A stretch of DNA of 64,000 nucleotides from Abditibacterium sp. (GTDB taxonomy: Bacteria; Armatimonadota; Abditibacteriia; Abditibacteriales; Abditibacteriaceae), in contig OZ251992.1 in NCBI GenBank assembly GCA_965246885.1, forward strand, positions 1,568,001 through 1,632,000, read 5' to 3'. The position numbers and the translations under genes are program-made. Under the pieces are notes generated by a model that was not told the DNA's origin, ran no database searches, and saw only the letters and a program-made list of their open reading frames with translations. Positions 1,511-48,024 of this stretch are shown here, piece by piece. The first letter of the stretch is position 1; each line of letters begins with the position of its first letter.

Positions 1511-1720
1511 CGTAGATTGGAACGAAGTTGTCGTAAATTAGGAAGTCGACGGCGTAAGTTAGGAAGTTGACGGCGTGAATTGAGAAGAAGTTGTCGTAAA
1601 TCAGCAAGTAGACGGCGTAAGTTAGGAAGTAGACGGCGTAAGTTGCGAAGAAGTTGTCGTAAATCAAGAAGTTGGCGGGATAAATCAGCAAGTTGACGGC
1701 GTAAATCAGGAAGTTGGCGG
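1511..1720. repeat. Tandem array of 10 x 21-bp degenerate units with a 63-bp higher-order period
   Basis: Units such as CGTAAATTAGGAAGTCGACGG, CGTAAGTTAGGAAGTTGACGG and CGTGAATTGAGAAGAAGTTGT; units 1, 4 and 7 end in GAAGTTGT. Confidence 0.95.
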
Positions 1721-1847
1721 CGAAAAAAAGCGAGGTGTGGGCGCCCGCGAGGAAATTGGATAAAATGGGAAGGCCCCTGCTGGAGATGAAGCGCGAAAAT
1801 GTATGGACGCGCGAGTTGCTGGCGTAGTTCGGGGCGCACAAGACACC

Positions 1848-3032
1848 ATGAGCATCCGCTTCTTCTCATCCGAGTCCGTGACCGAGGGCCATCCCGACAA
1901 AATGGCCGACCAGATTTCTGACGCCGTTCTCGACGCCATCCTTAAAGACGACCCGCACGCGCGCGTCGCTTGCGAGACGTTCCTGACGACCGGCATCGTC
2001 GTCGTCGGCGGCGAAATCTCGACCAAGACGTATGTCGAAATCCCGACCGTCGTGCGCAAAGTCGTGAAGGAAATCGGCTACGTGCGCGCCAAGTTCGGCT
2101 TCGACTACCTGACGGCGGGCGTCCTCAACGCCATCGGCCAGCAAAGCCCCGACATCGCGCAGGGCGTCACCAAGAGCCTCGAAACGCGCGAAGGCAAGGC
2201 CGACAGTTCGCACTACGACGAAGTCGGCGCGGGCGACCAAGGCATGATGTTCGGCTTCGCGTCCAGCGACACCGACGTGTTGATGCCGCTCCCCATCACC
2301 CTCGCGCACGCGCTGTGCAAACAGTTGGCGGAAGTCCGCAAAAACGGCACCTTGAAATGGCTGCGCCCCGACGGGAAGTCGCAAGTCACCGTCAAATACG
2401 AGAACGATATCCCCGTTTCCGTCGAGAAAGTGCTGATCTCCACGCAGCACCACCCCGAAGTCGAGGCCGACGAAATCCGCGCGGGCGTCATCGAACACGT
2501 CATTCAGCCCGTGTTGGGCGACAAATACTTCCGCCCCGAAATCGAGATTTTCGTCAACCCAACGGGCCGCTTCGTCATTGGCGGGCCGCAAGGCGACGCG
2601 GGCTTGACGGGCCGCAAGATCATCGTGGACACCTACGGCGGCATGGGACGGCACGGCGGCGGCGCCTTTTCGGGCAAAGACCCCACCAAAGTGGATCGCT
2701 CCGCTTGCTACATGATGCGCCACATCGCCAAAAACATCGTCGCGTCGGGCCTCGCCACGCGCTGCGAAACCCAAGTCGCCTACGCCATCGGCAAAGCCCG
2801 CCCCCTGTCCGTCTACGTCGACACCTTCGGCACCGGCAAATACGACGACGACCGCATCACCAAGGCCGTCGAACGCACCTTCGACCTGCGCCCCAAGGCG
2901 ATCATAGAACACCTCGACCTCCTGCGCCCCATCTACCGCAAAACGGCGGCGTATGGTCACTTTGGCCGGACAGAGCCAGAGTTCGTGTGGGAACACGTGC
3001 ATAAAGCCGACGCGCTGACGAGCGCGATTTAG
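1848..3032 (+). CDS. metK: S-adenosylmethionine synthetase
   Basis: [17 protein letters not shown] and GGGAFSGKD motifs; ATG at 1848. Confidence 0.98.
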
Positions 3033-3038
3033 GCAGAC

Positions 3039-3071
3039 GAAGGGGAAGAAGGCGCTGCTTTCTTCCCCTTC
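3039..3071 (+). terminator. Hairpin after metK
   Basis: GAAGGGGAAGAA-N9-TTCTTCCCCTTC directly after the stop codon; weak U-tract. Confidence 0.5.
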
Positions 3072-3083
3072 AAACTTTCCGTT

Positions 3084-3704
3084 ATGCCCACCAAAAGCAT
3101 CTTCAAAGCCGTTTTGACCGGGGATGAAGAGTCGCTGTTAGCCCTCATCAAAAAGGGCGCCGACCTCAACGTCAGGGATAAGCAGGGACTTCCGCCTTTG
3201 CATTGGGCCGCGTATCGCGGTGTCAACAACACACTGCGGCTCTTAATAGAACACGGCGCCGAGGTCAATACGGCGAATAACATCGGTTACACGCCTCTTA
3301 TGGCTGCTTCGCGCGAGGGGCGCACCGAAACTGTGCGCCTCTTGTTGGAATACGGCGCCGACATCCACGCCCAAAGCAACGATGAAAGCACCGCCCTGAC
3401 TTTCGCCGCGACCTACGCTCATGTGGGCGTCGTGGAGTTGCTTTTGGAACACGGGGCGTCTGTGCAAGGCAAGGGCGCTGACGCCGCTTTGTTGGGCGCG
3501 GCGTGGAACGGTATCAGCCAAAGCGTGGCCGCTTTGATAGCGGCGGGCGTCAACATTCGAGCAACGAATAAAGCCGGAAAAACGGCGTGGGATTTGGCGA
3601 GTGAGGTAGGCCGCGCCGAAGCGGGTCGCGCGGCGGTGAGGGAAGTTTTGAAGAAAGCCAAAGCAGCCCGCCTGAACGCCGATGTATCACCAGATGAGGA
3701 GTGA
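3084..3704 (+). CDS. Ankyrin repeat protein
   Basis: Repeated GxTPLHxAA...LLIEHGAxVN-type motifs. Confidence 0.93.
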   Translation: MPTKSIFKAVLTGDEESLLALIKKGADLNVRDKQGLPPLHWAAYRGVNNTLRLLIEHGAEVNTANNIGYTPLMAASREGRTETVRLLLEYGADIHAQSNDESTALTFAATYAHVGVVELLLEHGASVQGKGADAALLGAAWNGISQSVAALIAAGVNIRATNKAGKTAWDLASEVGRAEAGRAAVREVLKKAKAARLNADVSPDEE

Positions 3705-3710
3705 CGAACC

Positions 3711-4307
3711 ATGCCCGCAACCAACGAGATTCGCGCTGATTACGACGCGCGCGGTATTACCATCTATCAGGCATATGGGGCGGCGATTGCGCTGCCCGCG
3801 ATTCGAGAGCAACGCTTTGTGTCGCCGTTCTCGCTCGCGCGCATGACTTGGATAAAACCGTCGTTTCTGTGGTTGATGGAGCGGAGCAACTGGGCGCAAA
3901 AGTCGGGACAGGAGTTCGTTTTGGGCGTGCGAATCTCGCGGAGCGGCTAGGAAGAAGCGTTGTCGGTGGGCGTTCTTACGAGTTACGAGCCGTCCGTTCA
4001 CGCCAACCCACGAGCATGGCGGGATGAGTTCGAGCGGGCCACCGTCCACGTTCAGTGGGATCCCGAACGCTCGATTCGCGGCGCCGATGTGGGTTGCAAC
4101 AGTATCCAAATCGGCATCAGGCGCCACCTCATCGGGCGATATGTGGATGAATGGGTGCTGGAAATCCAAGACCTCACGCCATCCGTGCGAAAAATCCACG
4201 CCCTCATCAAAGCGGGCCACGTTGACAAAGCGCGAAAGCTACTGCCGAGCGAACGCCCCTACCCCGTGAACGCCGAAGTTGCGAGAAGGTTGGGCATGGC
4301 GAAGTGA
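3711..4307 (+). pseudogene. DUF4291 family protein interrupted by an in-frame TAG at 3948-3950
   Basis: [31 protein letters not shown] and VQWDPERS motifs lie in one frame across the stop (ISRSG*EEAL). Confidence 0.8.
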
Positions 4308-4337
4308 ACAGTGGCACACTCTGGCGGAGAAAATCTG

Positions 4338-4550
4338 ATGACGCATCTCCAAGAACAACTGGTTCACGAAGTCGAGCGGCTGGACGAGAGCGACTTGCGC
4401 TCTCTCGCGCAGTTCATTTCATTCCTCAAGTTCCGCGCGCAGGGCGCGGATGAAGACGCGCGCTTTTGGCAGGGCGCGAGTGCGTCGGCCCTCGACGCGG
4501 TGTGGGACAACCCGGAGGACGATGTGTATGGCGAGCTACTCAAGGCTTGA
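4338..4550 (+). CDS. Putative type II antitoxin (DUF2281-like)
   Basis: 70 aa, acidic C-terminus WDNPEDDVY, GGAGA RBS, overlaps the toxin start. Confidence 0.75.
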   Translation: MTHLQEQLVHEVERLDESDLRSLAQFISFLKFRAQGADEDARFWQGASASALDAVWDNPEDDVYGELLKA

Positions 4551-4875
4551 GGTCGTGCTGGTGCGCTACCCGTTCACGGATTTGACGGGTTCCAAAGTGC
4601 GTCCGGCGATTGTGGTGTCGGACGCGCACACGTCGCAAGACTTAATCGTTGTCGCGCTCACAAGCCGGACTGCGAACCTGCTGGCGGGCGAGTTCGTTCT
4701 CGCTGAATGGGGCCAAGCCGGGCTGAACTTGAAGACCGCCCTCAAGCGGGGCATCTACACGGTCGAAGAATCGCTGGTTCAAAAAGGGGTTTGGCTGTTG
4801 GAGGCCGGGGATGCCCTCCGCCTCGACCAGTCTTTGCGGATGTGGCTCGCTCTTCCTCAAAACGAAACCCCATAG
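4528..4875 (+). CDS. PemK/MazF family toxin
   Basis: VVLVRYPFTDLTGSKVRPAIVVS...VVALTS signature; ATG at 4528. Confidence 0.9.
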   Translation: MASYSRLEVVLVRYPFTDLTGSKVRPAIVVSDAHTSQDLIVVALTSRTANLLAGEFVLAEWGQAGLNLKTALKRGIYTVEESLVQKGVWLLEAGDALRLDQSLRMWLALPQNETP

Positions 4876-4880
4876 TAGGC

Positions 4881-7103: not shown

Positions 7104-8150
7104 TTAACGCGCGGGGCTTTGAGGGTGGAACAGGATGAGAAGCAAAGCGGCGGCGCCAACCAGTTTGGCGACAGGCGACCCGACCACAATGTTGAGCGCG
7201 CTCATGCCCGCGTACGCGCCCAACCCCACGCGCAGCGCGCCCACCGCGCCGCCGCGAACCGCGCATCGTCCGACACACAACACCCACGCCCCCCAACCGA
7301 ACGCGAACGCCCACAACGGCATGCCACGCGAGAAAGCGAGTGCGCCCACCAACAACACGGGCAAAAAGGCGGCGCCCAGCCATGCGCTGCGCCCGATGGA
7401 CAAACGGCCCGCGTCGGGCGACGACTGGCCCGCATCGGGGAACGACGACCAAGCACCGGGCCGCGTCCGACCCGCGCCGGGAAATGTTCCACCCGCACCG
7501 GGGAATGTTCGCCCGGCGTCGGGCGCTCTTTGCCAAGCGCGGGGAGCCGTCCACCCGCCCCGCCATAGCGAAGCCGCGACTACGCTTGCGCCGATGCCCG
7601 CCCACAATCCCCAAAAACCGGGCGGCGCGGTGTGTGGGCGCTGCGAGAAGTACGTCGTAGAAATCAGCGCGACGACCAGCAAAAGCGCGCCCGCCGACCA
7701 CCCGGACAGCCACGTCGCTCCGGCGGTTTGCGGGCGCAATCGCTCGATCAGCAGAAGCGGCGTCACGATGGCGAACAGCGAGTGATACGCGCAAATGACC
7801 AGCAGCCAACCCCAGTTGACGCCGCCCGCGCCGACGTGCCCATCGAACAAGCCCCAAGGAACATGGCGGTTGAGAAACAGCGTCTTGGCGACGAGTCCCT
7901 CGTTGAACAACCCGTAGCCAAACCCCGCGAGTAACAGCCCGCCCAATGATACCCCACGCCGCAACGCCCATTCGCGCAGCAGCAAAATGGGAAACCCGTA
8001 AATTGGAATCAGCCCCCACGCATGAGTCACGAAATCCCAAGGCGTGCCATTCGAGGACAGCACCTCGGCCATGAACGGGCACACGAGACACAGTGTCGCC
8101 GCCGAAATGCGGGTGTCGCGGCGTGTGGGGCGGTGGAGGGATGTGGTCAT
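7104..8150 (-). CDS. Hypothetical multi-pass membrane protein with a heptad-repeat loop insertion
   Basis: Several hydrophobic helices (YGLFNEGL motif). Start moved to the ATG at 8150 because the track start lies inside the REP-like element. Confidence 0.7.
   Translation of the reverse strand: MTTSLHRPTRRDTRISAATLCLVCPFMAEVLSSNGTPWDFVTHAWGLIPIYGFPILLLREWALRRGVSLGGLLLAGFGYGLFNEGLVAKTLFLNRHVPWGLFDGHVGAGGVNWGWLLVICAYHSLFAIVTPLLLIERLRPQTAGATWLSGWSAGALLLVVALISTTYFSQRPHTAPPGFWGLWAGIGASVVAASLWRGGWTAPRAWQRAPDAGRTFPGAGGTFPGAGRTRPGAWSSFPDAGQSSPDAGRLSIGRSAWLGAAFLPVLLVGALAFSRGMPLWAFAFGWGAWVLCVGRCAVRGGAVGALRVGLGAYAGMSALNIVVGSPVAKLVGAAALLLILFHPQSPAR
7408..7554. repeat. About 7 x 21-bp degenerate tandem units, in frame within the membrane protein gene
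   Basis: CCCGCGTCGGGCGACGACTGG, CCCGCATCGGGGAACGACGAC, CCCGCGCCGGGAAATGTTCCA, CCCGCACCGGGGAATGTTCGC; encodes QRAPDAG-RTFPGAG-GTFPGAG-RTRPGAW-SSFPDAG-QSSPDAG. Confidence 0.85.
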
Positions 8151-8157
8151 GCCATTC

Positions 8158-8232: not shown

Positions 8233-10038
8233 CTAATGCGACAGGCGAGAATCTAAGCGGTCTAACTCGTGCCATAATTCCTGCGGCAGATGTTCGCCGA
8301 AGGTATCGTAAAACTCCTGAATTGAAGCTACCTCGCGCTTCCATTCTTCGATGTCCACCGCCAGCAGTTCCGTCATCGCCGCGTCCGAGACATCCAAGCC
8401 CGTCACGTCCAACTCGCGCGGCACCCAGCCGATGGGGGTGTCGAGGGCGTCGGCCTGCCCATCGGTGCGCTCGAAGATCCATTTGAGGACGCGGATGTTG
8501 TCGCCGAATCCGGGCCACAGAAACTTCCCGTCGGCGCCGCGCCGGAACCAGTTGACGCCGAAGATGAGCGACATTTTGTCGGGCGTGGTGCTTTGCGGGA
8601 TTTCGAGCCAGTGGGCGAAATAGTCGCCCATGTGGTAGCCGCAAAAGGGCAGCATCGCCATCGGGTCGCGGCGGATTTGGCCGACTTGACCGCTCGCGGC
8701 GGCGGTGGTTTCGCTCGCAATGGTGGAGCCGATAAAGACCCCGTGCGCCCAATCGCGCGCTTGAAAAACGAGGGGCACCGTCGCAGGGCGACGCCCGCCG
8801 AATAGGATGGCTGAGATGGGCACGCCGCGCGGGTCGTCGTAGGCCGGGTCAATGACGGGACACTGCGACGCGCGCGCGGAAAAGCGGGCGTTGGGGTGGG
8901 CCGCGGGCGTGAGCGAGTCGGGCGTCCAAGAGTTGCCGCGCCAGTCGGTGAGATGCGCCGGTTTCTCGTCGGTTAAACCTTCCCACCACACGTCGCCGTC
9001 GGGCGTGCGCGCCACGTTGGTGAACACAACGTCCCGCTTCAAGGTGCCGATGGCGGCGGGGTTTGTCGCGGGGCTTGTGCCCGGCGCAACGCCGAAGAAG
9101 CCGAACTCCGGGTTGACGGCATACAGGCGCCCGTCGGCTTTGACGCGCAGCCACGCGATGTCGTCGCCGACGCACTCGATCTTCCAACTGGGCAGGGTGG
9201 GCGTCATCATGGCCAAGTTCGTTTTGCCGCACGCGCTTGGAAACGCGGCGGCGAAGTATTTCTTGCGCCCTTGGGGGTTGGTGATGCCCAAAATCAGCAT
9301 ATGCTCGGCCATCCACCCCTCGTCGCGCGCCATGACGGACGCGAGGCGTAGCGCGAAGCACTTCTTGGCAAGAAGCGCGTTGCCGCCGTAGCCGCTCCCG
9401 AAACTCCAAATTTGCCGCGCTTCGGGAAAATGCGCGATCATGCGCGCGTCGGGGTTGCACGGCCACGCGACATCCGCCTCACCTTCCTTTAAAGGCGCGC
9501 CAAGGGAATGAACGCACTTGACAAAATCCTCGCGCGCTCCCAAAGGCCGCAACACTTCGTGCCCACAGCGTGTGGTCAACCTCAGCGACAAGGCGACGTA
9601 GGGCGAATCGGTGATCTCGACGCCGATGCGCGCGATGCGCGAATCGAACGGCCCCAGACAAAACGGCACCACGAACATGGTGCGGCCCCTCATGCAGCCA
9701 TCGAAGAGGCCGAGCAGGTGCGACTTGGTGGCTTTGGGGTCGCGCCAATTGTTGGTCGGGCCAGCGTCTACGGGACGTTTGGAGCAGATAAAGGTCTGCT
9801 CCTCGACGCGCGCGACATCGCGCGGGTCACTTCTCGCCAAGAAGGAGTTCGGGCGCAAGTCTGGGTTGAGTTGTTCGAGCGTTCCCGCTTCGACCATGCC
9901 ATCGGCGAGCCATTCGTATTCCGCTTCGCTCCCATCGCACCAGTGCACGGCATCAGGCTGGCAAAGCGCGACCTTGCCAGCGACCCAGTCAAAGAGCGCC
10001 TCGTTCTGCGTGATTTCAAGGGGAAAGGGGATGTTCAT
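8233..10038 (-). CDS. pckG: Phosphoenolpyruvate carboxykinase (GTP)
   Basis: [31 protein letters not shown] and HPNARF motifs. Confidence 0.97.
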
Positions 10039-10138
10039 GGAATTAATCGCTTTGTTTTCCCGAAACGGGACGAGACGGGCAGTGTAAGGCGCGCAGTTTG
10101 CCTATTCTTCCCTTGATTCCATAGCAGGAACAACTCCG

Positions 10139-10777
10139 ATGAAAAAACTCTTGATGACGGGCCTCGCCCTTTCCCTTGTTGCTGGCGCCCATGCCAAGCC
10201 GATGAAGATGATGGCGCCCATGCCCTCGACCCCTGAACAAGTGGCGCCGCTTAAAAACGCCGTCGCCGCGAACTACGACCGCCTTTATACCCTCGCCGCC
10301 AGCGCAACCAACCTCAACGAAGTGGCGCTGGGCAAATTGGCCATGACGCACACGCGCAACCCCGACGTGCTCGCCATCGCCAAAATGACCCTGACCGAAC
10401 ACGGCGCCGCCGAGCGCGACCTCGCCGCCGCCGCGCGTGCCGAAGGCTTCCCCCTCTCGCCCGATCCCGGCCCGGTTAACAAAGCCTTCGGGGAGAAACT
10501 GGCCACCTTACGCGGCGCGGCATTCGACAAGATGTATCTCGCCGCGCAAGTCGCCGGTCACGAGACGGCCATCACCCTGACTACGCACGAAGTCGAAACC
10601 GGCCAGAACGCGCGCATCAAAGCCTACGCGTCCAACAAGCTCCCCGGCATCATCGGTCACACCTCGATGATCTACACCTGCGCCGCCAAATTTGGCGCGC
10701 CCGGCTCTAACCTGCGCCCCGCCGCCGTCAAAAAAGCCGCGATGGAAGTTGCCATGAAGAAAATGGGCAAGATGTAG
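10139..10777 (+). CDS. Secreted DUF4142 domain protein
   Basis: Signal peptide; EVALGKLA...L.GAAFDKMYL..QVAGH pattern. Confidence 0.85.
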   Translation: MKKLLMTGLALSLVAGAHAKPMKMMAPMPSTPEQVAPLKNAVAANYDRLYTLAASATNLNEVALGKLAMTHTRNPDVLAIAKMTLTEHGAAERDLAAAARAEGFPLSPDPGPVNKAFGEKLATLRGAAFDKMYLAAQVAGHETAITLTTHEVETGQNARIKAYASNKLPGIIGHTSMIYTCAAKFGAPGSNLRPAAVKKAAMEVAMKKMGKM

Positions 10778-10792
10778 TTCCAACCCACCCAA

Positions 10793-10824
10793 AAAGCCCC
10801 GCGACGGATCCGTCGCGGGGCTTT
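10793..10824. terminator. Perfect 32-bp palindrome between convergent genes, likely a bidirectional terminator
   Basis: AAAGCCCCGCGACGGATCCGTCGCGGGGCTTT. Confidence 0.75.
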
Positions 10825-10826
10825 CG

Positions 10827-12509
10827 TTATCCGCTTTCCAAACACCGGCGCCACGCGCGAAGCGCCCAACCCCACAGCGCCGCGCACACGCCAGCCAGCG
10901 AGAGCAGCATGGGAGAGACGGGCGCGGCGTCCGTTCCACCCACCACAAGCGCGCGGATGGGAACCAGCCACACCACTTCAATCGGTGCGGGCGCCGCAAA
11001 CAGCATCGGCGAAAAGACGGCGGGTAACACCAAGAACAAGACCACCAACGCGCCCAACGTCGCGGGCGTTGCTAATGTCACCGCCCGAAAACGCAGCCCG
11101 CACACGGCTCCAAGGAGAGACGACAGCAAGAGCAACCCCGCACCAATGCACGCTTCCTCCGCGATGCGAAGAGGGCTTGCGGGAAGTGCGGCCAAACCCA
11201 AGCCAACGAGTGGAATCCCCCAAAAGCGTGCGCCGAGCAGAATGGGCGTGACGACTTTGGCACCCACGATTTGCGGAGGGGATAGCGCTGTCAGTTGCAG
11301 TTGCGCCATCATGTTGCCCGCCCGCTCGCGCGCCCATCCGCCCGACGAGAGTAGCGCGGTCTGCACCGTCGCCGCGCCGATAAGGAGGTCGAAACAGACG
11401 TGCAACGTCGTCGCTACCCCCGAAGTTATCACGCCCAAGAGAGCCAGCGCAGCCCCGACGAGAAGCGCCGCGCGAATCGAAAAGACCGGCGCTGGTTCGC
11501 CAATGAGGAGCACCCGCCGCCACGCCCGCAGTTGCGTTCGCACGTCACGTTCTGCCAACACGTTGCGAGATGCGAGGGCTTCCAATTGTAAATCGAGCTT
11601 AGACGGAGGCGGTTCCAGTAGGCCGCGCTCCACCTGCGCCGCGTTCATGGTGCGCGCCAACTCCTGCGCGCTCATCGGCTCTCGCGCCTGCTTTGCGCCC
11701 GCCGACATCCTCAGAAGTTGCGGCTCCAAGCGTAGGGGAACGGTGTCCGGGTCTGGCGACCAGTCAGGCGTTTGCGGCGCGTCTATTTCGAGGTGACGGG
11801 TCAGGAAATAAATCTCCTCCTCGACGCGCCGTAGCAAATAAAGCGGCAACATCGCCGCCACCACGCCGCCCGCCAACAGAAGTTCTGGTGCAAGTGACGG
11901 CGCCAGATACAGGAGCGGGCACGCGAAAAAGCCCACCACCCACGTTCTGACCGTCGCGTCCAAGATGGCCGATGAAACCGTCTTGTGAGTTGCCGACACC
12001 GCTGACCCCATTGCGCACGACGCGAGCGCGACGCCCACGCACAGCGTGTTCGCCGCCACAAAATCCATGGGGGACACACCGCCCAACGGAAAACACAGCG
12101 CCGCAACGGGAAGCGGCGCGACCACCAACACAAGCGCGAACGACGCGAGCGAACTCCACTTGGCCCGCACGATTTGGCGGCTCTCGATACCCGCTAAGGC
12201 CAACTCCGGCAACGACCGCCTCTCCCGCTCCAACGCCAAGACGGGCGCACCCAACAGCAAACCAAGTGGCACCCATCCCGCGATTTGCCACGCCACGAAA
12301 TGCCAAAACAGTGGCGCCCCCAACCCCAACCCCTGCTTGGAAAACGGGATTTCGCCCTGCGGCACGAGCGCCCCGTAGAACACCCGCGCCAAAATCGCCA
12401 GCGCCCCCGCATACGCGCCCAGCAGCAAAAATGTCCAAGGCCGCCGCCAGCGCCCGCGCACTTCGCGCACCCACAACGGGTCACGTTCTTTGGCCGCGCG
12501 GGGAAACAT
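10827..12509 (-). CDS. ABC-2-type permease-like membrane protein with two repeated halves
   Basis: DPLWVREVRGRWR, ERERRSLPELAL and RERAGNMMAQLQLTALSP.QIV.AK motifs; many TM segments. Confidence 0.7.
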   Translation of the reverse strand: MFPRAAKERDPLWVREVRGRWRRPWTFLLLGAYAGALAILARVFYGALVPQGEIPFSKQGLGLGAPLFWHFVAWQIAGWVPLGLLLGAPVLALERERRSLPELALAGIESRQIVRAKWSSLASFALVLVVAPLPVAALCFPLGGVSPMDFVAANTLCVGVALASCAMGSAVSATHKTVSSAILDATVRTWVVGFFACPLLYLAPSLAPELLLAGGVVAAMLPLYLLRRVEEEIYFLTRHLEIDAPQTPDWSPDPDTVPLRLEPQLLRMSAGAKQAREPMSAQELARTMNAAQVERGLLEPPPSKLDLQLEALASRNVLAERDVRTQLRAWRRVLLIGEPAPVFSIRAALLVGAALALLGVITSGVATTLHVCFDLLIGAATVQTALLSSGGWARERAGNMMAQLQLTALSPPQIVGAKVVTPILLGARFWGIPLVGLGLAALPASPLRIAEEACIGAGLLLLSSLLGAVCGLRFRAVTLATPATLGALVVLFLVLPAVFSPMLFAAPAPIEVVWLVPIRALVVGGTDAAPVSPMLLSLAGVCAALWGWALRAWRRCLESG

Positions 12510-12539
12510 GGCGGGGAGTGTAGATTGGCGGTGACGCCC

Positions 12540-13493
12540 TCACCCTGCCCGCAAGCCAAAGTCGCCCATGCCAAAGCCTTTGGGTTCGGGCAAATGCGCG
12601 CGCACCTGCGCGTCCGCAAAACGGGTGCGCGGCACTAAATCGGCGGGGAGCGGCGACGCGACGCCAACGGGCAGGGCGCTTTCCACTGGCTCGGACAGCA
12701 TGAAAACTTGCGCCGATGAGATGAGCGGGATCGGCATCAACCGCTCGAAAATCTGCGCCAGAACTTGGTGCCCCACAACGGGAAACGGGAAGACCAGCAC
12801 CGGGCGGCGAATCAGGCGCGCCACTTTATGCACCGCGTCGGACAAACGCATTCTGTCCGGCCCCAACACGGCGACCGTTTGATGGGACAGGCGCCCCTGC
12901 GTCAGGCACGCGAGGACAACCTTGACGACGTCTTCGACCGCGACGGGCCGAATCGCTTTCTGGCGCAAGCCCACCGTCGCAAACAGCGGGAAAGAGTGCA
13001 GCGTGTGCGACAGATGGTCGAGCATATGGTCGCCGCGCCCATACGTCATGCCCGGCTTGAGAATCGTCCAGTCGAGGTCGCTCGCCCGCACAATTTGCTC
13101 GGCGGCCCACTTCGATTCGTGATACGCCGAGCCGCAACTGGGACGCGCCCGCACGAACGACAGCAGCGCCAGCTTCGGCACGCCCGCGCGCCGGGCCGCT
13201 TCGACCACGTTGCGCGTGCCCCCAACGTGAACGCGCTCATACGTTTGCTCGCCGATTTCGCGGTTGATTCCCGCACAGTGCGCGACGCCGTCGCAGCCCG
13301 CGAACGCTTGGGCTAATTGCTCCACCGAGTCCGTGCCGACAGCCAGAAAGCGAACGCCCGCCAACTCCCGTATCGCCAAGTCGCGCGTATCGCGCCCACG
13401 CGACAGTAACACGACCTCATGCCCATCCGCGACCAAGGCGCGAGCGAGATGGCGCCCGACGAAACCGGTGCCTCCGGTAATGGCGATTTTCAT
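12540..13493 (-). CDS. NAD(P)-dependent epimerase/dehydratase (NDUFA9-like)
   Basis: ITGGTGFVG, HCAGI and YHESK motifs. Confidence 0.9.
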   Translation of the reverse strand: MKIAITGGTGFVGRHLARALVADGHEVVLLSRGRDTRDLAIRELAGVRFLAVGTDSVEQLAQAFAGCDGVAHCAGINREIGEQTYERVHVGGTRNVVEAARRAGVPKLALLSFVRARPSCGSAYHESKWAAEQIVRASDLDWTILKPGMTYGRGDHMLDHLSHTLHSFPLFATVGLRQKAIRPVAVEDVVKVVLACLTQGRLSHQTVAVLGPDRMRLSDAVHKVARLIRRPVLVFPFPVVGHQVLAQIFERLMPIPLISSAQVFMLSEPVESALPVGVASPLPADLVPRTRFADAQVRAHLPEPKGFGMGDFGLRAG

Positions 13494-13505
13494 GGTGCTT
13501 GGAAT

Positions 13506-14771
13506 TTAGCGGCTTCCGGCGATGACGCCGTGCGCGCGGTCTTTTTGGAGTTGCGAGGCCGTCGTGATGCCTTCGCGCTGGGTAATGCCCAAGTTCGCGC
13601 CGGGCTGGATGAGGTCGGCCTTTTGGCTGGACAAAAGCGTCTCGACATCGGTGACGCCCTCCAAGCCGCGCGAGAGGACGTTGTAAAGCGGATTGCGCTC
13701 GACGGGGTCCCTGCCTACTTCGAGAATCATCTCGACCAGTTCGCGCGAAGTCAGCACTTGCTTGCGGTCGCGGGTGGGGTCGCGGATGATTTCGTATTCC
13801 ATGATGGTGCCGTCCACATCATCCGCGCCGAACCAAAGGGCCGCTTGCGAGACGGGCGCGGTGTTCATAATCCAGAACGTCTTGATGTGCGGGAAGTTAT
13901 CCAGCATGAGGCGCGCGACGGCGATTTCGCGCAGGTCTTCCACGCCTGTTGGCGCCGGTAGCTCTTCCATCGCCGTCTTTTCCGGGTGCCACGAGAGCGG
14001 GATAAAGGTGAGGAAGCCGCCGGTTTCGTCTTGCAGTTCGCGCAGGCGTAGGAAGTGCTCGACCTTTTCGGGCGTCTGCTCCACATGGCCATACAAGAGT
14101 GTCGCGTTCGACTTGATGCCCGCAATGTGCGCGGCGCGCGCCAATTCCAGCCAGCGCTCGGCATTGGGTTTGGCGAAGAAGAGGTCTTCGTGAACGCGCT
14201 CGCTCATCACTTCGGCGCCGCCGCCGGGAATGGCGTCCAGCCCGGCGGCTTTCAAGTCGGCATAAACCTCCTCTGGCGCTTTCTTGGCCGCGCGCACGAT
14301 TTGGTCTATCTCCACCATCGTGAACGCTTTGATGTGCGCCTTGGGCCGGGCGGCTTTGATGGCTATCAGCAGTTCGAGGTAGTAAGCGTAGGGCAGCTTG
14401 GGATTGACGCCGCCGACGATGTGGATTTCGCTAATCGGCACGTCGCCGTAGTTGGCCACCTTTTGCGCAGCCTGCTCTGGCGTCATGGTGTAGGCGCGCG
14501 GGTCGTCCTTTGGCTTTGCATAAAACGAGCAGAACAGGCAACCTTTATTGCACACGTTGGTGTAGTTGATGTGTTGGTTGCGCACCCAGTAGGCGACATT
14601 GCCGTTTTTTTGCTCGCGGACGAAGTTCGCTAAGTGTCCAACGGCGTTCAGGTCGGAGGCGCGATACAGCGTCAGGCCGTCCTCGAACGAGAGCCGCTCG
14701 CCGCGCGCGACCTTGTCGGCGATGGCGCCAAGGCCCGCGCGTTCGAGGCGGCTTTGGAAAACGGGATTCAT
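13506..14771 (-). CDS. mqnE: Aminofutalosine synthase (radical SAM, CofH/MqnE family)
   Basis: HINYTNVCNKGCLFCSF, PGGGAE, SNATLLYGHVE and ARLMLDNFPHIK motifs. Confidence 0.8.
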   Translation of the reverse strand: MNPVFQSRLERAGLGAIADKVARGERLSFEDGLTLYRASDLNAVGHLANFVREQKNGNVAYWVRNQHINYTNVCNKGCLFCSFYAKPKDDPRAYTMTPEQAAQKVANYGDVPISEIHIVGGVNPKLPYAYYLELLIAIKAARPKAHIKAFTMVEIDQIVRAAKKAPEEVYADLKAAGLDAIPGGGAEVMSERVHEDLFFAKPNAERWLELARAAHIAGIKSNATLLYGHVEQTPEKVEHFLRLRELQDETGGFLTFIPLSWHPEKTAMEELPAPTGVEDLREIAVARLMLDNFPHIKTFWIMNTAPVSQAALWFGADDVDGTIMEYEIIRDPTRDRKQVLTSRELVEMILEVGRDPVERNPLYNVLSRGLEGVTDVETLLSSQKADLIQPGANLGITQREGITTASQLQKDRAHGVIAGSR

Positions 14772-20418: not shown

Positions 20419-20607
20419 TCCGTCTGGCACACCGCGCCAGACGCCGGTGACGCGACGACAGACATCCGGCGGCTAATGACAGAGGGCGGCGGAACAATGA
20501 CGGACGTCTGTCGCGGAGTCACCGGCGTCTGGCGCCCAGTCGCAGAGGGCGGCGAACGAACGCCCGCCCTCCGAAAGTGGAGGGCATAGGGCGGTGACGC
20601 GAAGTTA
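20419..20607. repeat. About 9 x 21-bp highly degenerate tandem units abutting the SDR stop codon
   Basis: GACGCCGGTGACGCGACGACA, GACATCCGGCGGCTAATGACA, GAGGGCGGCGGAACAATGACG, GACGTCTGTCGCGGAGTCACC, GGCGTCTGGCGCCCAGTCGCA, GAGGGCGGCGAACGAACGCCC. Confidence 0.75.
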
Positions 20608-21366
20608 AAGGCGCGCGAGGCGTCCAGCGTCAACGGTTAGAGTGGTGCCGGTGATAAACGCGGCGCCATCGGAGGCAAGATAGCAAATGGCGTCGGCGAT
20701 GCCTCCGGCGGGAATGACGGTGCCTTCCAGCTTTTCGGCGCCCGATTGCAAATTGGGGTTGCTCCACAAAAGCGGCGTGTCAACGGCGCCGGGGGCGACA
20801 GCGTTGACGCGCACGCTTTGCGTTTCGACTTCGAGGGCGAGAGCGCGCGTGAACGCTTCAAGTCCGCCTTTGCTCGCGGCGTAAGCGGACACGTTGCGCG
20901 TGGTGGCTTGGGCATGAACGCTGGACACGTTGATGACCGCGCCGCCGCGCCGCCCGTTGGCGCGCTTCATGTGCGGCACAGCGTATTTGCAAAACAGGAA
21001 GGCCGCGCGCAGGTTGACATCCATCACAGTGTCCCAGTCGTCCTCGGACAAGGCAACGACGGGAGCAAAACGCATGGTTCCGGCGTTATTGACGAGGGTG
21101 TCGAGGCGCCCCCATAGCTCTACGACGCGATTGACCGCACCCTGCACGTCGGCGCTTTGCGACACATCAGCGCAGAGAAACACGCCCTGTCCGCCTTCTT
21201 TGGTGAGCAGTTCGAGGGTTTGCGCGCCGGTTTCGCGGTCGTTGTCCACGATGGCCACGCGCGCGCCCTCGCGGGCCAGTTGTAAGGCCGTCGCGCGCCC
21301 AATACCCGACCCGGCGCCCGTCACGAGGGCGATTGATCCCTTGAATCGCATGAAATTCTGCTCCAT
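20605..21366 (-). CDS. SDR family oxidoreductase
   Basis: TGAGSGIG, NNAG and YAASK motifs. Confidence 0.93.
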   Translation of the reverse strand: MEQNFMRFKGSIALVTGAGSGIGRATALQLAREGARVAIVDNDRETGAQTLELLTKEGGQGVFLCADVSQSADVQGAVNRVVELWGRLDTLVNNAGTMRFAPVVALSEDDWDTVMDVNLRAAFLFCKYAVPHMKRANGRRGGAVINVSSVHAQATTRNVSAYAASKGGLEAFTRALALEVETQSVRVNAVAPGAVDTPLLWSNPNLQSGAEKLEGTVIPAGGIADAICYLASDGAAFITGTTLTVDAGRLARL

Positions 21367-37407: not shown

Positions 37408-37491
37408 CACTCGCCGACACACGCGCGCCACCGACTGACACACGCGCGCCACCGAGCGACACACGCGCGCCGACGAGCGACAGACCTCCGT
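37408..37491. repeat. 4 x 21-bp tandem units abutting the stop codon of 37491..38501
   Basis: CACTCGCCGACACACGCGCGC, CACCGACTGACACACGCGCGC, CACCGAGCGACACACGCGCGC, CGACGAGCGACAGACCTCCGT. Confidence 0.9.
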
Positions 37492-38501
37492 CAGTCGCGC
37501 AAATCCGCCGCGCTCAGCCCGCGCTCCTCCCACAAGGCGCGCAGTTCCAGCAGCGCTTCCACCCGCTCATGCGCCGATGGAGCGGGCGTCCAAAAGTGGA
37601 ACATGCCCAACCGATATTCGCGGAGCCACTGCGTCACGCACGAGTAGCGCGCCAACTCACCTCCGCGCGTTGGCTCAAAGTAAGAAAGCGCCGCGTCCCA
37701 GATGCGCTCAAAGCGCGGCGTGAGTTCGACTGAATCGTAACTGTTGTTTCTGAGCCACGCGCGCTCTCCCGGCGCCTCACCCTCGGCCAATTGGAACTGA
37801 AAACCGATGGCTTGCGCGTTCGCCCACAAAGCGGTGTCCGTTAGCACCGCCAAGCGCAGCACCTGCTGAAAGAGCGCGAACGAGTCGCGGCACGTTCCGG
37901 TTGAGAGTTCATCCCGTTCTTCGCGCATCTTGGCCGCCCACTCCGCCGCGAACGCGACATCGGAACCCACCTCGCGCGCCAACACTTGAAACGCCTTCAG
38001 CCACTCAGGTGCTGGTTCTTCAAGCCATTCCTCCGCTACGCCGTCGTGCCACCGAAAACTTTGCGCCTCGTTCTGCACGATGTCGCTGATATTGTTGTTG
38101 CTTGGAATACTCGCAATGCGCGTCCAACTGCCGCGCCCATCGGCGTTCAAAAACACCTTCCATACCACTCGTTGCGGATACGCGATTGGTTCGAGGTCGT
38201 CGCCCAAGCAGAAGACGTGCCCGACGCGCCCTTCCTCCCACGCCGCGCGCCACAGTTCCTCCAACGGTTGCTTGGAAGCACCCAGCCATGTGGCTCTTTG
38301 GAACGGCTTGCGCTTGAGGGCGGCGCACAAATTGAAGCGGGAATCCTCCCCGATGCGGCGGGCCACCAGAAAGTGAATCATGTTTCCCGCCACGCCCCAC
38401 ACCCACTCCCCATCCGTGTCCACGTCGCGGCACTGTAAGAAGCTGGCGTCCAAGTCCGCCGCTTCCCAAGGCGCCAAGTCGAGGGTCAGAGTGTCACTCA
38501 T
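37491..38501 (-). CDS. Hypothetical Trp-rich protein of the 'P[ST]AHExxEA' family
   Basis: 8-bp overlap with the gluconokinase stop; C-terminus PSAHERVEALLELRALWEER. Confidence 0.75.
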   Translation of the reverse strand: MSDTLTLDLAPWEAADLDASFLQCRDVDTDGEWVWGVAGNMIHFLVARRIGEDSRFNLCAALKRKPFQRATWLGASKQPLEELWRAAWEEGRVGHVFCLGDDLEPIAYPQRVVWKVFLNADGRGSWTRIASIPSNNNISDIVQNEAQSFRWHDGVAEEWLEEPAPEWLKAFQVLAREVGSDVAFAAEWAAKMREERDELSTGTCRDSFALFQQVLRLAVLTDTALWANAQAIGFQFQLAEGEAPGERAWLRNNSYDSVELTPRFERIWDAALSYFEPTRGGELARYSCVTQWLREYRLGMFHFWTPAPSAHERVEALLELRALWEERGLSAADLRD

Positions 38502-44197: not shown

Positions 44198-44211
44198 CCG
44201 TTCAATCAAAG

Positions 44212-44239: not shown

Positions 44240-44263
44240 TCTTCTTAACGGGTTCTCTGCAAA

Positions 44264-47200
44264 TTACCCACAGCCCGTCGTTGTGCCACATTCGTTGCAT
44301 TTGTAGCACGCGCCGGAGCGGACGGTGATGGCGCCGCAGTTGGGGCAGGGCGGGCTGTCGGCTTGGGACTGCATAAGCGAGGCTTGCGCGTCGGCGAGGT
44401 TGCCGTTGGCCGCGCCGCCCTCGTGAGAGGGGAGCGAAAACAGCGTGGGCAGGGCGGTGGCTGAAGTGGGCGCGGCGCTAAAAGCGGGCGCCCGTTCAGC
44501 TTTTTTTGGTTCGACCTCCCCTTCTTGGGCGGGTGCGGCTTTGCCAAAGTGCCCGTTGTCGCCGTTGGGATGAAACTTCTGGTCGAACCACCGGAAGATG
44601 TAATCCATCAGCGACTTAGCGAGCGGAATGTCGCGGTTCGTCGTATACCCCGACGGCTCGAAGCGGGTATGCGAGAACTTGTTAACCAATACCCGCAGGG
44701 GCACTCCGTATTGCAAGCACATGGAGATGGCAACAGCAAAGGAGTCCATGAGGCCGGAGATGGTCGAGCCTTCCTTCGACATCTTAATGAATATCTCGCC
44801 GGGGCTGCCGTCCTCATAGAGGCCGACCATGAAGTAACCCTCTTGACCCGCGATGGAGAATTTGTGCGTAATGCTCATCCGTTCATCGGGCAATTTGCGG
44901 CGCAAAGCGCGTTTCATCTCCGACTCTTTCTGTTCCGCCTTTTGCGCGTCGCTCGAAGTCGAAAGCGGCTGCGTCCGTTTGGAATTGTCGCGGTAGATGG
45001 CAACAGCTTTCACGCCCGACTTCCACGCTTGGATGTAAGCGTCCATTATCTCATCTACCGTGCAGTCTTGCGGCATATTAACGGTCTTTGAAATCGCGCC
45101 ACTAAGGAAGGGTTGCGCCGCCGCCATCATCTTCACGTGGCCCATGTGATGAATGGAGCGCACGCCGTTCATCGCTTTGAAGGCGCAGTCGAAGACGCTA
45201 AAATGCCGGTCTTCCAATCCCGGTGCGCCCTCGATGGTGTCGTTCTTGTCTATGTACTCGACGATGGTTTGAATTTCGTTCTCGTCGTATCCCAACTTGC
45301 GCAACGCGGCGGGGACGGTCTGGTTGACGATCTTAAGCATACCCCCGCCGACCAATTTCTTGTACTTTACAAGCGCAATATCGGGTTCGACGCCCGTCGT
45401 ATCGGCATCCATCATAAAAGAGATGGTGCCGGTGGGAGCAAGAACCGTCGTTTGGGAGTTGCGATACCCATGCTTTTGTCCAAGTAACAATGCCTCATCC
45501 CATACCTTGTGCGCTTCTTCCAACACGTTATCGGCGACAAGCGAGTGGTCAATGCGGTTAACCGCGTCGCGGTGCTTGCCAATAACGCGCAGCATCGGCT
45601 CGCGGTTGAGTTCGTAACCCTCGAACGGGCCAGTATTGCGCGCTATTTTGGCGCTCTGGCGATACCCCGCGCCCGTCATAATGGCAGTTAGCGCCCCCGC
45701 AAACGCGCGGCCTTCATCGGAATCATACGCCAATCCCATCGCCATTAAGAGCGCGCCGATGTTGCAATAGCCCAACCCCAGTGGGCGAAACAGTTCCGAG
45801 TTTTCCGCGATGCGCGCGGTGGGATACGACGCGAAAGAAACGATGATTTCCTGCGCCGTCAAAAACACTTCGCACGCATGGACATAAGCCTTCGCGTCAA
45901 AGTTTCCGGTCTCGAAGTCGTAGAACTTGAGCAAGTTGATGGAAGACAAGTTGCACGCCGTCGAGTCCAGAAACATAAACTCCGAGCAGGGGTTGGAAGC
46001 ATAAATGCGGTCGGTGTTAATGCACGTGTGCCAGTCGTTAATCACCGTGTCGTATTGCATTCCTGGATCGCCGCAAATGTAGGTGGTCTCCGCGATGGAG
46101 CGCAGCATCTGGCGCGCGTCGAGGGTTTCCACCACTTGCCCCGATGTAACCGCGCGCGTCTGCCAAGGCTGGCCGTTCTCGGCGGCGCGCATAAACTCGT
46201 CTGTCACGCGCACAGAGTGGTTGGCGTTTTGAAAAGCGACCGAATCGTACGCGCCGCCGGGCACGTTGAAACCGCCGTTGTAACCCGCGTCTATCAAGGC
46301 CCACGCCTTCTTTTCCTCGTTCGCCTTGCACCAAATGAACTCGGCAATGTCGGGGTGATCCACGTTCAAAATCACCATCTTCGCGGCGCGGCGCGTCGTG
46401 CCGCCCGACTTAATCGCGCCCGCAAAAGCGTCCCAACCGCGCATAAAACTCACGGGGCCGGATGCAATGCCGCCGCCCGACAGGTGCTCCCTTGAGGAGC
46501 GAATGCGCCACAAATTCGAGCCTGCGCCCGACCCGCCCTTAAAGAGGCGCGCTTCGGTCGCGGCCAACTCCATGATGGACTCCATGTCATCGTGCACGTC
46601 GTTGATGAAACACGCGGAACACTGCGGTTTGGCGCCCTTGACGCCGAGGTTGAACCAGACGGGAGAGTTGAAGGCGCCGTATTGATGAAGGAGCAGATAC
46701 ACCAGTTCGTCACGAAAACTCTGCGCATCTTCGGGGCTGGCGAAGTAGCCGCCTTGGTTGCCCCAGTCGTGCAGGGTGTCGGCGACGCGGCCAATGACTT
46801 GGCGCACGCTGGTTTCGCGGGCGGGGGTATTCATCGGGCCGCGAAAATACTTGCTGACGACGACGTTGGTCGCTAACTGCGACCAATGCGCGGGAATGTC
46901 GCAGTCGGTCTGCTCAAAAACCGACTTGCCGTTTTCGCCGGTGATGGACGCAGTGCGCTTTTCCCATCTCGCGGTCGAGAAGGGGTCTTGACCGGCCTTT
47001 GTAAAGTGGCGCGGCATCTTGAGGGCGCGGTCGGGCGCAGTTTGAGCGCGGAAACCGGGCGTCCAACCCGTCGAGCCGGTGCCGGTCGTGACCGGAACTT
47101 TGGCGCGCGCGGCTTCGGCTTCTTCGAGTTCGGACGCGCCCATTTCGCTGGGCACGACAACCGTTGTGCCGTTGGTTTCGTGCGCATGGCCGTTGTGGGC

Positions 47201-47290
47201 GTGGCCATTTTCGGCGTGGCCGTTGCCGTTTTGGGAGGAAGCGTGGCCGTTAGTGGAGGCTGTGGCGATTGGAGTGATGGAGTCGGACAT
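44264..47290 (-). CDS. nrdJ: Vitamin B12-dependent class II ribonucleotide reductase with TSCPD domain and C-terminal zinc ribbon
   Basis: FNSPVWFN, CSACFI, SNPCSE, APTGTISF, SGAISKTVN, and terminal CPNC...CNEC...GCG. Confidence 0.95.
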   Translation of the reverse strand: MSDSITPIATASTNGHASSQNGNGHAENGHAHNGHAHETNGTTVVVPSEMGASELEEAEAARAKVPVTTGTGSTGWTPGFRAQTAPDRALKMPRHFTKAGQDPFSTARWEKRTASITGENGKSVFEQTDCDIPAHWSQLATNVVVSKYFRGPMNTPARETSVRQVIGRVADTLHDWGNQGGYFASPEDAQSFRDELVYLLLHQYGAFNSPVWFNLGVKGAKPQCSACFINDVHDDMESIMELAATEARLFKGGSGAGSNLWRIRSSREHLSGGGIASGPVSFMRGWDAFAGAIKSGGTTRRAAKMVILNVDHPDIAEFIWCKANEEKKAWALIDAGYNGGFNVPGGAYDSVAFQNANHSVRVTDEFMRAAENGQPWQTRAVTSGQVVETLDARQMLRSIAETTYICGDPGMQYDTVINDWHTCINTDRIYASNPCSEFMFLDSTACNLSSINLLKFYDFETGNFDAKAYVHACEVFLTAQEIIVSFASYPTARIAENSELFRPLGLGYCNIGALLMAMGLAYDSDEGRAFAGALTAIMTGAGYRQSAKIARNTGPFEGYELNREPMLRVIGKHRDAVNRIDHSLVADNVLEEAHKVWDEALLLGQKHGYRNSQTTVLAPTGTISFMMDADTTGVEPDIALVKYKKLVGGGMLKIVNQTVPAALRKLGYDENEIQTIVEYIDKNDTIEGAPGLEDRHFSVFDCAFKAMNGVRSIHHMGHVKMMAAAQPFLSGAISKTVNMPQDCTVDEIMDAYIQAWKSGVKAVAIYRDNSKRTQPLSTSSDAQKAEQKESEMKRALRRKLPDERMSITHKFSIAGQEGYFMVGLYEDGSPGEIFIKMSKEGSTISGLMDSFAVAISMCLQYGVPLRVLVNKFSHTRFEPSGYTTNRDIPLAKSLMDYIFRWFDQKFHPNGDNGHFGKAAPAQEGEVEPKKAERAPAFSAAPTSATALPTLFSLPSHEGGAANGNLADAQASLMQSQADSPPCPNCGAITVRSGACYKCNECGTTTGCG

Positions 47291-47347
47291 GGGAATGATG
47301 TGCGCGGCAAATGCGTGGCCTCCCCTCACACTCGCAGGAACGGGGAA

Positions 47348-47395
47348 ACCCAACATCTTGTGCCGTGCGGGGAAAGCGGGCACAACATATCGGAA
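47348..47395. promoter_or_regulatory. Two NrdR boxes, 32 bp apart, upstream of nrdJ
   Basis: ACCCAACATCTTGTGC (47348-47363) and GCACAACATATCGGAA (47380-47395) resemble the acaCwAtATaTwGtg consensus. Confidence 0.75.
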
Positions 47396-47554
47396 TTTGC
47401 GACCAGAAAAGGTTAAGGCGCGGCCCTCCTCTTTGCAAGCGGCGCGCACCCATTTTCTTTCCCAAAATCCAAATATCATTCCTCGTTTGGGGCACTTTTC
47501 CCTATTTGCGAGTCAGTTATCCCCGCTTTTGCAGCCGTTGGGACATCTGTTGTT

Positions 47555-47854
47555 TCAAGCGGGTTTCGCATCTCCCGATGGAGCCGAAGCGGGAGCCGGA
47601 GTTGTCGGGGCGTCGGCCTTGGTTTCGGCGGGAGCGGCGTCGGTTTTGGGGGCGTCTTCGACCTTGCCGACGCCCGCTTCGGCGCGCGTATCCGTCAGGT
47701 AAAAGCCGGAGCCTTTAAAGATGGTGCGCATCGGGCGAAACACCTTTTGCGTTGGGGCGCCGCAGGTCGGGCAGGGCGGAGCGGCAGAGCCGATCTCTTG
47801 CCATAAGTCAAAAATCGTTCCTTCTTCGGTGCACTTGTATTCGTAGGTGGGCAT
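47555..47854 (-). CDS. FmdB family zinc-ribbon protein
   Basis: MPTYEYKC...CPTCG...IFKGSGFYLTD followed by a low-complexity tail. Confidence 0.9.
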   Translation of the reverse strand: MPTYEYKCTEEGTIFDLWQEIGSAAPPCPTCGAPTQKVFRPMRTIFKGSGFYLTDTRAEAGVGKVEDAPKTDAAPAETKADAPTTPAPASAPSGDAKPA

Positions 47855-47940
47855 GATTGTTCGAAAGGTGTCGGGCGAGGCGGGAGAGAGGTCTGGCAAC
47901 CGTTCACCGGCCTAAAGGGACGAAAGCATTGTACCGGCGA

Positions 47941-48024
47941 ACCATCGGCGCGCCTCATTCTTTCGCTGGCGCGCCTCGTTCTTCGGTTGGCGCGCATAGT
48001 TCTTCGATTGGCGTGTATGCGCCG
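47941..48024. repeat. 4 x 21-bp tandem units in a divergent intergenic region
   Basis: ACCATCGGCGCGCCTCATTCT, TTCGCTGGCGCGCCTCGTTCT, TCGGTTGGCGCGCATAGTTCT, TCGATTGGCGTGTATGCGCCG. Confidence 0.85.

What the first reader, a model, noticed from the sequence alone, without database searches (positions are those of the whole stretch)
1511..48024. Five sequence-unrelated tandem arrays share a 21-bp period
Seen: arrays at 1511-1720 (10 units), 7408-7554 (about 7), 20419-20607 (about 9), 37408-37491 (4) and 47941-48024 (4). All have 21-bp units with no indels but have different consensus sequences and heavy substitution between units. Two abut a stop codon, two lie in divergent intergenic regions, and one is an in-frame insertion in a membrane protein. 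Inference: a length-specific rather than sequence-specific process may generate or maintain them, e.g. a fixed-step duplication mechanism, two-helical-turn phased protein binding, heptad micro-ORFs or processed small RNAs. I know of no named element class that fits.
Basis: partly seen in the sequence, partly recalled or inferred. Interest (0 to 1): 0.8.

Follow-up and report, generated by a model that had tools for sequence, protein, structure and literature searches.

The report
Protein-ruled 21-base DNA satellites
This bacterium carries about 220 short repeat arrays on a strict 21-base grid, copied between sites and even into genes, and their spacing is likely set by a small unstudied protein whose doubled form goes with a doubled spacing, which offers a testable candidate for the missing partner of bacterial "constant-length satellites".

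Summary
The five arrays are unrelated to each other, but four belong to species-specific families with 3-25 relatives elsewhere in the genome. They are dispersed, mosaic satellites, inserted even in frame into genes. Such constant-size satellites are in print (PMC8161180) with no protein known. The genome has two helical-bundle+FN3 genes, each with a 21-bp array just upstream and orphan copies of that array elsewhere. Across relatives, one-bundle genes have period 21 (28 of 60) or 42 (7); two-bundle genes have 41-42 (15 of 21) and never 21. Best reading: the protein is a DNA ruler (inferred, untested). Against it: none of the five window arrays has such a gene, the protein is not basic, and gene presence did not predict dispersed arrays in 20 sampled genomes. 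Earlier scan notes had reported the gene-upstream arrays in other genomes. The dispersal and the period-to-bundle scaling were not in the notes I saw.

The parts
1511..1720 (.). 21-bp array, about 10 units, in the divergent gap upstream of metK (1848+); one of a four-member AT-richer family
   Evidence: relatives at C1:1371012, 2308914 and 2289985 (17-19 of 21) with unrelated flanks
7408..7554 (-). 21-bp array, about 7 units, in frame inside the membrane protein 7104-8150(-)
   Evidence: 43-residue insertion absent from 3 of 3 aligned orthologues (66-70% identical on the N-terminal side, 47-52% on the C-terminal side); only 1 partner at 15/21
20419..20607 (.). 21-bp array, about 9 units, main family (palindromic core CAGACGTCTG), abutting the stop of the SDR gene 20605-21351(-)
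   Evidence: 25 partners at >=15/21, best 19
37408..37491 (.). 21-bp array, 4-5 units, main-superfamily variant, abutting the stop of ORF 37491-38501(-)
   Evidence: 9 partners at >=15/21; the flanking units fit the main-family register
47941..48024 (.). 21-bp array, 4 units, TAATTCTT-type family, in the divergent gap between 47555-47854(-) and 48099-49106(+)
   Evidence: 11 partners at >=15/21
49220..49306 (.). sixth 21-bp array, 4.2 units, inside ORF 49112-49540(-); membership uncertain, may be an ordinary coding repeat
   Evidence: no partner at >=15/21

Best explanation
The five arrays belong to a genome-wide set of about 220 species-specific satellites on a strict 21-bp grid that have been copied between sites, and their period is likely set by a small helical-bundle+FN3 protein that would line up along the DNA at one bundle per two helical turns. 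SHOWN: the period excess, the strict register, the families and mosaic units, lineage-specific insertion (also in frame into genes), arrays just upstream of the bundle+FN3 genes, orphan copies of those gene-linked arrays, and period 21 versus 41-42 tracking one versus two bundles. INFERRED: that the protein binds the arrays; that the gene-linked array is a master or operator; that orphan arrays are non-autonomous copies, reshuffled by in-register slippage and recombination; and that the main family, which includes two of the window arrays, had a master gene that is now lost or undetected. The enzyme that moves the arrays is not identified.
For: (1) Period and register. Main-family profile hits lie a multiple of 21 apart in 228 of 229 gaps up to 130 bp. 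(2) Copying: 174 of 221 arrays have a partner at >=16/21, while 7 of 20,000 shuffled pairs reach 16. The core 12-mer occurs 79 times here and 3 times in all in 40 relatives. prmA carries exactly 35 extra residues (5x21 nt) against 7 of 7 aligned orthologues. (3) Genes A (C1:1335829-1336473) and B (C1:525622-526317) have arrays 115 and 46 bp upstream. B's array has 4 orphan siblings and A's has 1, while HMM scans find no further full-length A/B gene in the genome. In G019 a gene-linked array also has an orphan copy (83% over 172 bp). (4) Scaling: 60 one-bundle genes give 21 (28), 42 (7), 63 (2), 22 (1), none (22), never 41; 21 two-bundle genes give 41 (8), 42 (7), other (3), none (3), never 21. 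Controls: 0 of 12 FN3-only genes and 0 of 98 downstream regions have 21/41/42. AlphaFold models show one versus two three-helix bundles, each with a 53-56-residue helix, plus FN3. (5) DNA-level hints: a sigma-70-like promoter lies between array and gene at p<0.05 in 5 of 19 loci, and arrays show no consistent orientation to transcription.
Against: None of the five window arrays lies beside a bundle+FN3 gene or belongs to the array family of A or B, so their link to the protein is by shared period and anatomy only. The main family has no master gene in this 92.7%-complete genome. The proteins are not basic (median pI 5.9), have no invariant residue and match only FN3 folds in the PDB: there is no known DNA-binding or catalytic motif. 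Co-occurrence is not clean: in 65-100-kb samples of 20 relatives, period-21 arrays appeared in 3 of 10 gene-bearing and 4 of 10 gene-less genomes; two of the gene-less cases lie inside long ORFs, but G157 has what looks like a true family. Seven one-bundle genes have a 42-bp period and 22 have no array above threshold. The loci are not independent (G019 gives many). Only 1 of 4 in-gene insertions is an exact multiple of 7 residues. The 52-nt satellites of PMC8161180 do not fit a 21-bp ruler.
Confidence: 0.45

Rival explanations
1. Two separate things share a two-turn period: the gene-upstream arrays are operators of the bundle+FN3 genes, while the dispersed satellites of this genome are bound and maintained by another, unidentified nucleoid or mobile-element protein.
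For: The main family and all five window arrays have no cognate gene. Gene presence did not predict dispersed arrays, and G157 has arrays without a detected gene. Twenty-one is a natural helical period.
Against: The arrays upstream of A and B have long orphan siblings in ordinary gene gaps, as does one in G019. Gene-linked and orphan arrays share period and weak dyad symmetry (11.9 vs 10.5 and 11.7 vs 10.7 against shuffles).
Confidence: 0.25
2. The arrays are selfish REP-like repeats moved by a resident Y1 (RAYT/TnpA) transposase. The period is inherited from founder units, and the bundle+FN3 genes merely sit in the same insertion hot spots.
For: Five Y1 transposase genes are present. Arrays are dispersed and species-specific, and lie closer to the stop than to the next start in 80 of 110 co-oriented gaps. 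All 3 bundle+FN3 genes of this genome lie next to a copy of one 26-copy REP family.
Against: The Y1 genes are flanked by their own hairpins of other sequence, and only 3 of 78 REP loci lie within 150 bp of an array. This does not explain why unrelated units all keep 21, nor the 41-42 period of two-bundle genes in two phyla.
Confidence: 0.15
3. The arrays act as RNA: transcribed in 3' UTRs or divergently, folded, and measured or cut into about 21-nt pieces, possibly by the bundle+FN3 protein.
For: They sit nearer stop codons, and 19 of 47 arrays fold better than shuffles at z<-2. PMC8161180 raises the small-RNA idea.
Against: There is no orientation bias to transcription (7:13, 12:10, 2:7, 1:5), median folding z is only -1.6, and window array 1511 does not fold better than shuffles. 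Gap classes match background (110/42/18 vs 1019/354/198). There is no Rfam hit in the window. Periods of 21 and 41-42 match the B-DNA helical repeat.
Confidence: 0.1
4. The arrays are heptad micro-ORFs or remnants of coiled-coil genes.
For: 21 nt is 7 codons, and B's array reads as a leucine heptad in one frame.
Against: The 41-bp period is not a multiple of three. In-gene copies are read on either strand. 170 of 221 arrays are intergenic and 3 have no open frame at all. The ORFs over array 1511 have no Pfam hit.
Confidence: 0.05

Closest known systems
Constant-size bacterial satellites of 20-21 and 52 nt (Subirana and Messeguer 2021, PMC8161180; I read parts 1-2 of 5 and further passages; their 2020 paper was seen only as cited there)
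   Same: Fixed repeat size with variable sequence, several species-specific families per genome, mostly non-coding, short shared words and their reverse complements. The authors note that 21 nt is two DNA turns and suggest a protein that needs a constant repeat size to polymerise on DNA.
   Different: In the passages read they name no such protein and no source locus. Here there is a candidate gene family with upstream master arrays, a period that scales with its bundle number, about 62 arrays per Mb, and in-frame insertions into conserved genes.
REP/REPIN-RAYT systems (Bertels and Rainey 2011, PMC3116915; abstract and passages)
   Same: Dispersed, species-specific, mostly extragenic repeats whose sequence is also found beside one dedicated gene.
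   Different: The units are direct tandem copies in register, not inverted doublets. The linked gene has no transposase fold. This genome's Y1 genes have other repeats.
Rickettsia palindromic elements and cyanobacterial small dispersed repeats (SDR, 21-27 nt); both recalled, papers not read (search listing only; not held)
   Same: [quoted passage not shown]
   Different: As recalled, they are single conserved units. Here the elements are variable-copy tandem arrays of many families on one grid.
Phased centromere or operator arrays such as parC-ParR and tubC-TubR (recalled, not tested)
   Same: An array of helically phased degenerate sites next to the gene of a protein that would polymerise on it.
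   Different: Those proteins have known DNA-binding folds and an NTPase partner, and their arrays are not spread over the chromosome.

Membership tests
Constant-size bacterial satellites (PMC8161180) | Constant 20-21-nt repeat with variable sequence | tested here: met
Constant-size bacterial satellites (PMC8161180) | Several species-specific families per genome | tested here: met
   families; core 12-mer 79 times here, 3 times in all in 40 relatives (one family tested)
Constant-size bacterial satellites (PMC8161180) | Mostly non-coding | tested here: met
   170 of 221 intergenic by my own gene caller
Constant-size bacterial satellites (PMC8161180) | Short characteristic words, with their reverse complements, shared across families | tested here: met
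   main-family units found inside arrays of other families
Constant-size bacterial satellites (PMC8161180) | Only partial conservation between strains of one species | tested here: inconclusive
   contigs of 2 runs of one study match the window exactly where they span arrays 1511, 7408 and 20419; no second strain was available
REP/REPIN-RAYT | Repeat organised as an inverted doublet forming a hairpin | tested here: not met
   direct tandem units in register, only weakly dyad-symmetric
REP/REPIN-RAYT | Same repeat flanks a RAYT gene | tested here: not met
   5 of 5 Y1 genes are flanked by other inverted repeats; two have an array about 1.1-1.3 kb away
REP/REPIN-RAYT | Dispersed, extragenic, species-specific | tested here: met
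CRISPR-like or guide-RNA arrays | Conserved repeat alternating with unique spacers | tested here: not met
   the whole unit varies as a mosaic of shared words; no Rfam hit in the window
Phased operator/centromere arrays (parC type, recalled) | Array adjacent to the cognate protein gene | tested here: inconclusive
   met for genes A and B and for many relatives; not met for the five window arrays
Phased operator/centromere arrays (parC type, recalled) | Cooperative DNA binding by that protein | not testable with these tools
   needs EMSA or ChIP
Coiled-coil gene remnants / heptad micro-ORFs | Period a multiple of three with a conserved open frame | tested here: not met
   41-bp period in 8 of 21 two-bundle loci; either strand read in genes

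The most novel reading that the evidence does not exclude
A helical-bundle+FN3 protein is a modular DNA ruler (one bundle = two helical turns) that coats its own upstream array and drives the spread of non-autonomous copies across the chromosome and into genes: a REP/RAYT-like partnership without a transposase, and the missing protein behind constant-size bacterial satellites.
Probability: 0.3. Interest if true: 0.85.

Novelty: new variant of a known kind. Interest (0 to 1): 0.62.

Why it matters
PMC8161180 leaves open why bacterial satellites keep a constant length while their sequence changes, and proposes an unknown protein that polymerises on them. This work names a candidate and gives a sharp test: one bundle should prefer 21-bp units and two bundles 41-42-bp units. 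If true, it is a new kind of length-reading DNA-binding module with many orthogonal gene/array pairs. It is also a source of new protein sequence, since arrays sit in frame in conserved genes such as prmA. If the link fails, the window is still an unusually dense member of a described but unexplained class.

Tried and rejected
RAYT/REP membership: rejected. YhcG/DUF1016, recalled as carrying heptad repeats: 0 hits in the genome. A gene family enriched beside arrays: the top clusters were only the array-overlapping ORFs themselves. A master gene for the main family: not found with five HMMs; the weak hits were spurious frames. A shared flank motif seen at array ends: 9 of 274 near arrays against 4.1 expected for the wider form, 6 of 296 against 4.4 for the narrow form, so weak. 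Module boundaries or target-site duplications: none clear in 8 paralogue pairs or at prmA. Strain variation: none in contigs of 2 runs of one study; no RNA holder listed. Gene A on plasmids: no match in 72,556 records; phages not searched. Rfam: 0 in the window. The wide structural search and the viral fold search did not run, so only Foldseek against the PDB for the one-bundle model was seen. Literature: 7 searches; none returned a paper linking repeat arrays to a bundle+FN3 protein. PMC6749651 was searched for five terms only and has no 'fibronectin'. Subscription journals are mostly not covered, and no supplements were read; the supplementary tables of PMC8161180 could show which genes lie beside its satellites.
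Full report
1. Observation. The five arrays are at the stated places on an ungapped 21-bp grid, in the contexts described. The window is G000:C1:1568001-1632000 of a 3.56-Mb, 62% GC genome. An earlier scan note calls the phylum Abditibacteriota; I did not test the name directly. Genome-wide, 185 of 290 TRF clusters at score >=70 have period 21, plus 22 at 42 and 5 at 63, against 9, 8 and 7 at periods 15, 18 and 24. An independent lag test gives 191 loci at lag 21, 12-14 at lags 15/18/24/30 and 0 at lags 20 and 22. After merging there are 221 arrays of three or more copies. They are spread evenly along C1 (17-25 per tenth), and 170 are intergenic by my own gene caller.

2. The arrays are families. 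The five window units match each other at only 8-12 of 21 positions, but have 3, 1, 25, 9 and 11 partners at >=15/21 elsewhere. In all, 174 of 221 arrays have a partner at >=16/21, a level reached by 7 of 20,000 shuffled pairs. The largest family has the palindromic core CAGACGTCTG. Its 12-mer occurs 79 times here and 3 times in all in 40 relatives. Units are mosaics of shared words, left-arm variants reappear as reverse-complemented right arms, and units of one family sit in register inside arrays of another. Profile hits of the main family lie a multiple of 21 apart in 228 of 229 gaps up to 130 bp; there are 479 hits against 3 in the reversed genome. This points to copying between sites plus in-register slippage or recombination (inference).

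3. They are lineage-specific insertions. The window's membrane protein has 43 extra residues against 3 of 3 orthologues. prmA has exactly 35 extra residues (105 nt) against 7 of 7 aligned orthologues. The fabF-rnc gap is 272 nt against 77-80 in G002, G010 and G012, but 224 in G003 and 117-267 in five more distant relatives. Two other in-gene cases add about 19 and 25 residues in variable linkers, so only 1 of 4 in-gene cases is an exact multiple of seven. In-gene copies are read on either strand. I saw no target-site duplication. Contigs of two runs of one study show no variation at the three arrays they span.

4. A linked gene family. Reading the neighbourhoods of 20 long arrays turned up two orphan genes, A (C1:1335829-1336473) and B (C1:525622-526317), with arrays 115 and 46 bp upstream. 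Neither hits Pfam. Language-model look-alikes are uncharacterised clusters, FN3-bearing for A, and A has 508 homologues. The model of A (pLDDT 94) is a three-helix bundle with a 56-residue helix plus an FN3 domain; Foldseek returns only FN3 domains. A third, weaker candidate (C1:2849867-2851027, FN3 hit E 4e-5) has an array about 770 bp upstream. B's array has four long orphan siblings (C1:1216538, 1861677, 1928984, 2584761) in ordinary gene gaps, and A's has one (C1:3062234); no other full-length A or B gene is found. In G019 a gene-linked array also has an orphan copy, one sampled orphan has four siblings, and a second sampled orphan has none.

5. The period follows the protein. Longer homologues of about 310 residues have two bundles in tandem plus FN3 (alignment; model pLDDT 90). 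One uniform test was run on the 700 bp upstream of every distinct gene fetched. Sixty one-bundle genes gave period 21 in 28, 42 in 7, 63 in 2, 22 in 1 and none in 22; none gave 41. Twenty-one two-bundle genes, from this phylum and Verrucomicrobiota, gave 41 in 8, 42 in 7, other periods in 3 and none in 3; none gave 21. Controls: 0 of 12 FN3-only genes and 0 of 98 downstream regions had 21, 41 or 42. Left out of these counts: 8 partial hits, 1 gene with under 300 bp upstream, and rows removed as duplicates. The loci are not independent, and A and B are among them. A period of 41 excludes a codon explanation for this family. A 53-56-residue helix is about 80 Angstrom and 21 bp of B-DNA about 71 Angstrom (standard geometry), which is compatible with one bundle per two turns (inference).

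6. Evidence against. None of the five window arrays is beside such a gene or in the family of A's or B's array, and the main family has no master gene here. The proteins are mostly acidic (median pI 5.9), with a few conserved K/R positions, the strongest in the FN3 part, and no invariant residue. In samples of 65-100 kb from 20 relatives, this genome's density (5.8 per 100 kb) was unmatched. Gene-bearing genomes gave G019 2, G286 3, G013 1 and 0 in seven others; genomes without a detected full-length gene gave G157 3, G193 3, G022 1, G006 1 and 0 in six others. The gene is therefore not sufficient, and not shown to be necessary. Small samples and undetected subfamilies weaken this test in both directions.

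7. DNA or RNA. Arrays have no preference among co-oriented, divergent and convergent gaps, but lie closer to the stop than to the next start in 80 of 110 co-oriented gaps. There is no consistent orientation to transcription, and folding is variable (median z -1.6; 19 of 47 below -2). A sigma-70-like promoter separates array and gene at p<0.05 in 5 of 19 loci. These favour a DNA-level role only mildly.

8. What is known. PMC8161180 (parts 1-2 of 5 and passages read) describes species-specific satellite families of constant size (20-21 or 52 nt) and variable sequence in Bacillus and other groups. It notes the two-turn length and suggests an unknown polymerising protein. The window's arrays meet four of its five features, and the fifth is inconclusive. 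REP/RAYT membership fails on two features. Seven literature searches found no paper on the bundle+FN3 link. Earlier unchecked scan notes had reported 21-bp and 41-42-bp arrays upstream of FN3 genes in other genomes (made after my own lead was noted). A search of the notes for genome-wide dispersal returned nothing.

9. Verdict. The feature is real and of a described but unexplained kind. It is made more interesting by a concrete candidate protein and a period that doubles with the protein's repeat unit. The ruler mechanism is inferred (0.45), and the mobilising step is unknown. Interest 0.62.

Noticed in passing
G000:C1:132317-134044, 2290475-2292151, 2328711-2330690, 2748592-2750103 (L007-L010): Four paralogous orphan genes of 500-660 aa, each followed by a gene of about 280 aa, each have a 21-bp array 200-700 bp upstream, from three different families (one is a sibling of window array 1511). 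They may be a second array-linked gene family. No Pfam hit.
   Followed up: partly
G000:C1:1335645, 526584, 2851023: All three bundle+FN3 genes lie next to a copy of one 26-copy REP family, and gene A lies directly beside that family's Y1 transposase.
   Followed up: partly
G000:C1:2848970-2849367, 1501704-1502101, 1786623-1786937: A 398-bp block made of an array plus non-repetitive flank is duplicated at 90% identity, with a third copy at 72%, so the copied unit can be larger than the array.
   Followed up: no
window 9439-13725: One contig of run X2 joins 9439 to 13725, skipping 4285 bases. It may be a deletion variant or an assembly-graph artefact.
   Followed up: no
window 596-1387: A single-copy ORF of 263 aa with no Pfam hit lies divergent from metK, next to array 1511.
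   Followed up: partly
L309:2802-2933 (G003): A 41-bp-period array turned up in a close relative in a random sample; its neighbour gene was not checked.
   Followed up: no
L292:14842-14904 and L293:17691-17774 (G157): Two related 21-bp arrays in a genome with no detected bundle+FN3 gene.
   Followed up: partly
G000:C1, lags 64-68: A second periodic signal at 64-68 bp, probably CRISPR arrays; not examined.
   Followed up: no
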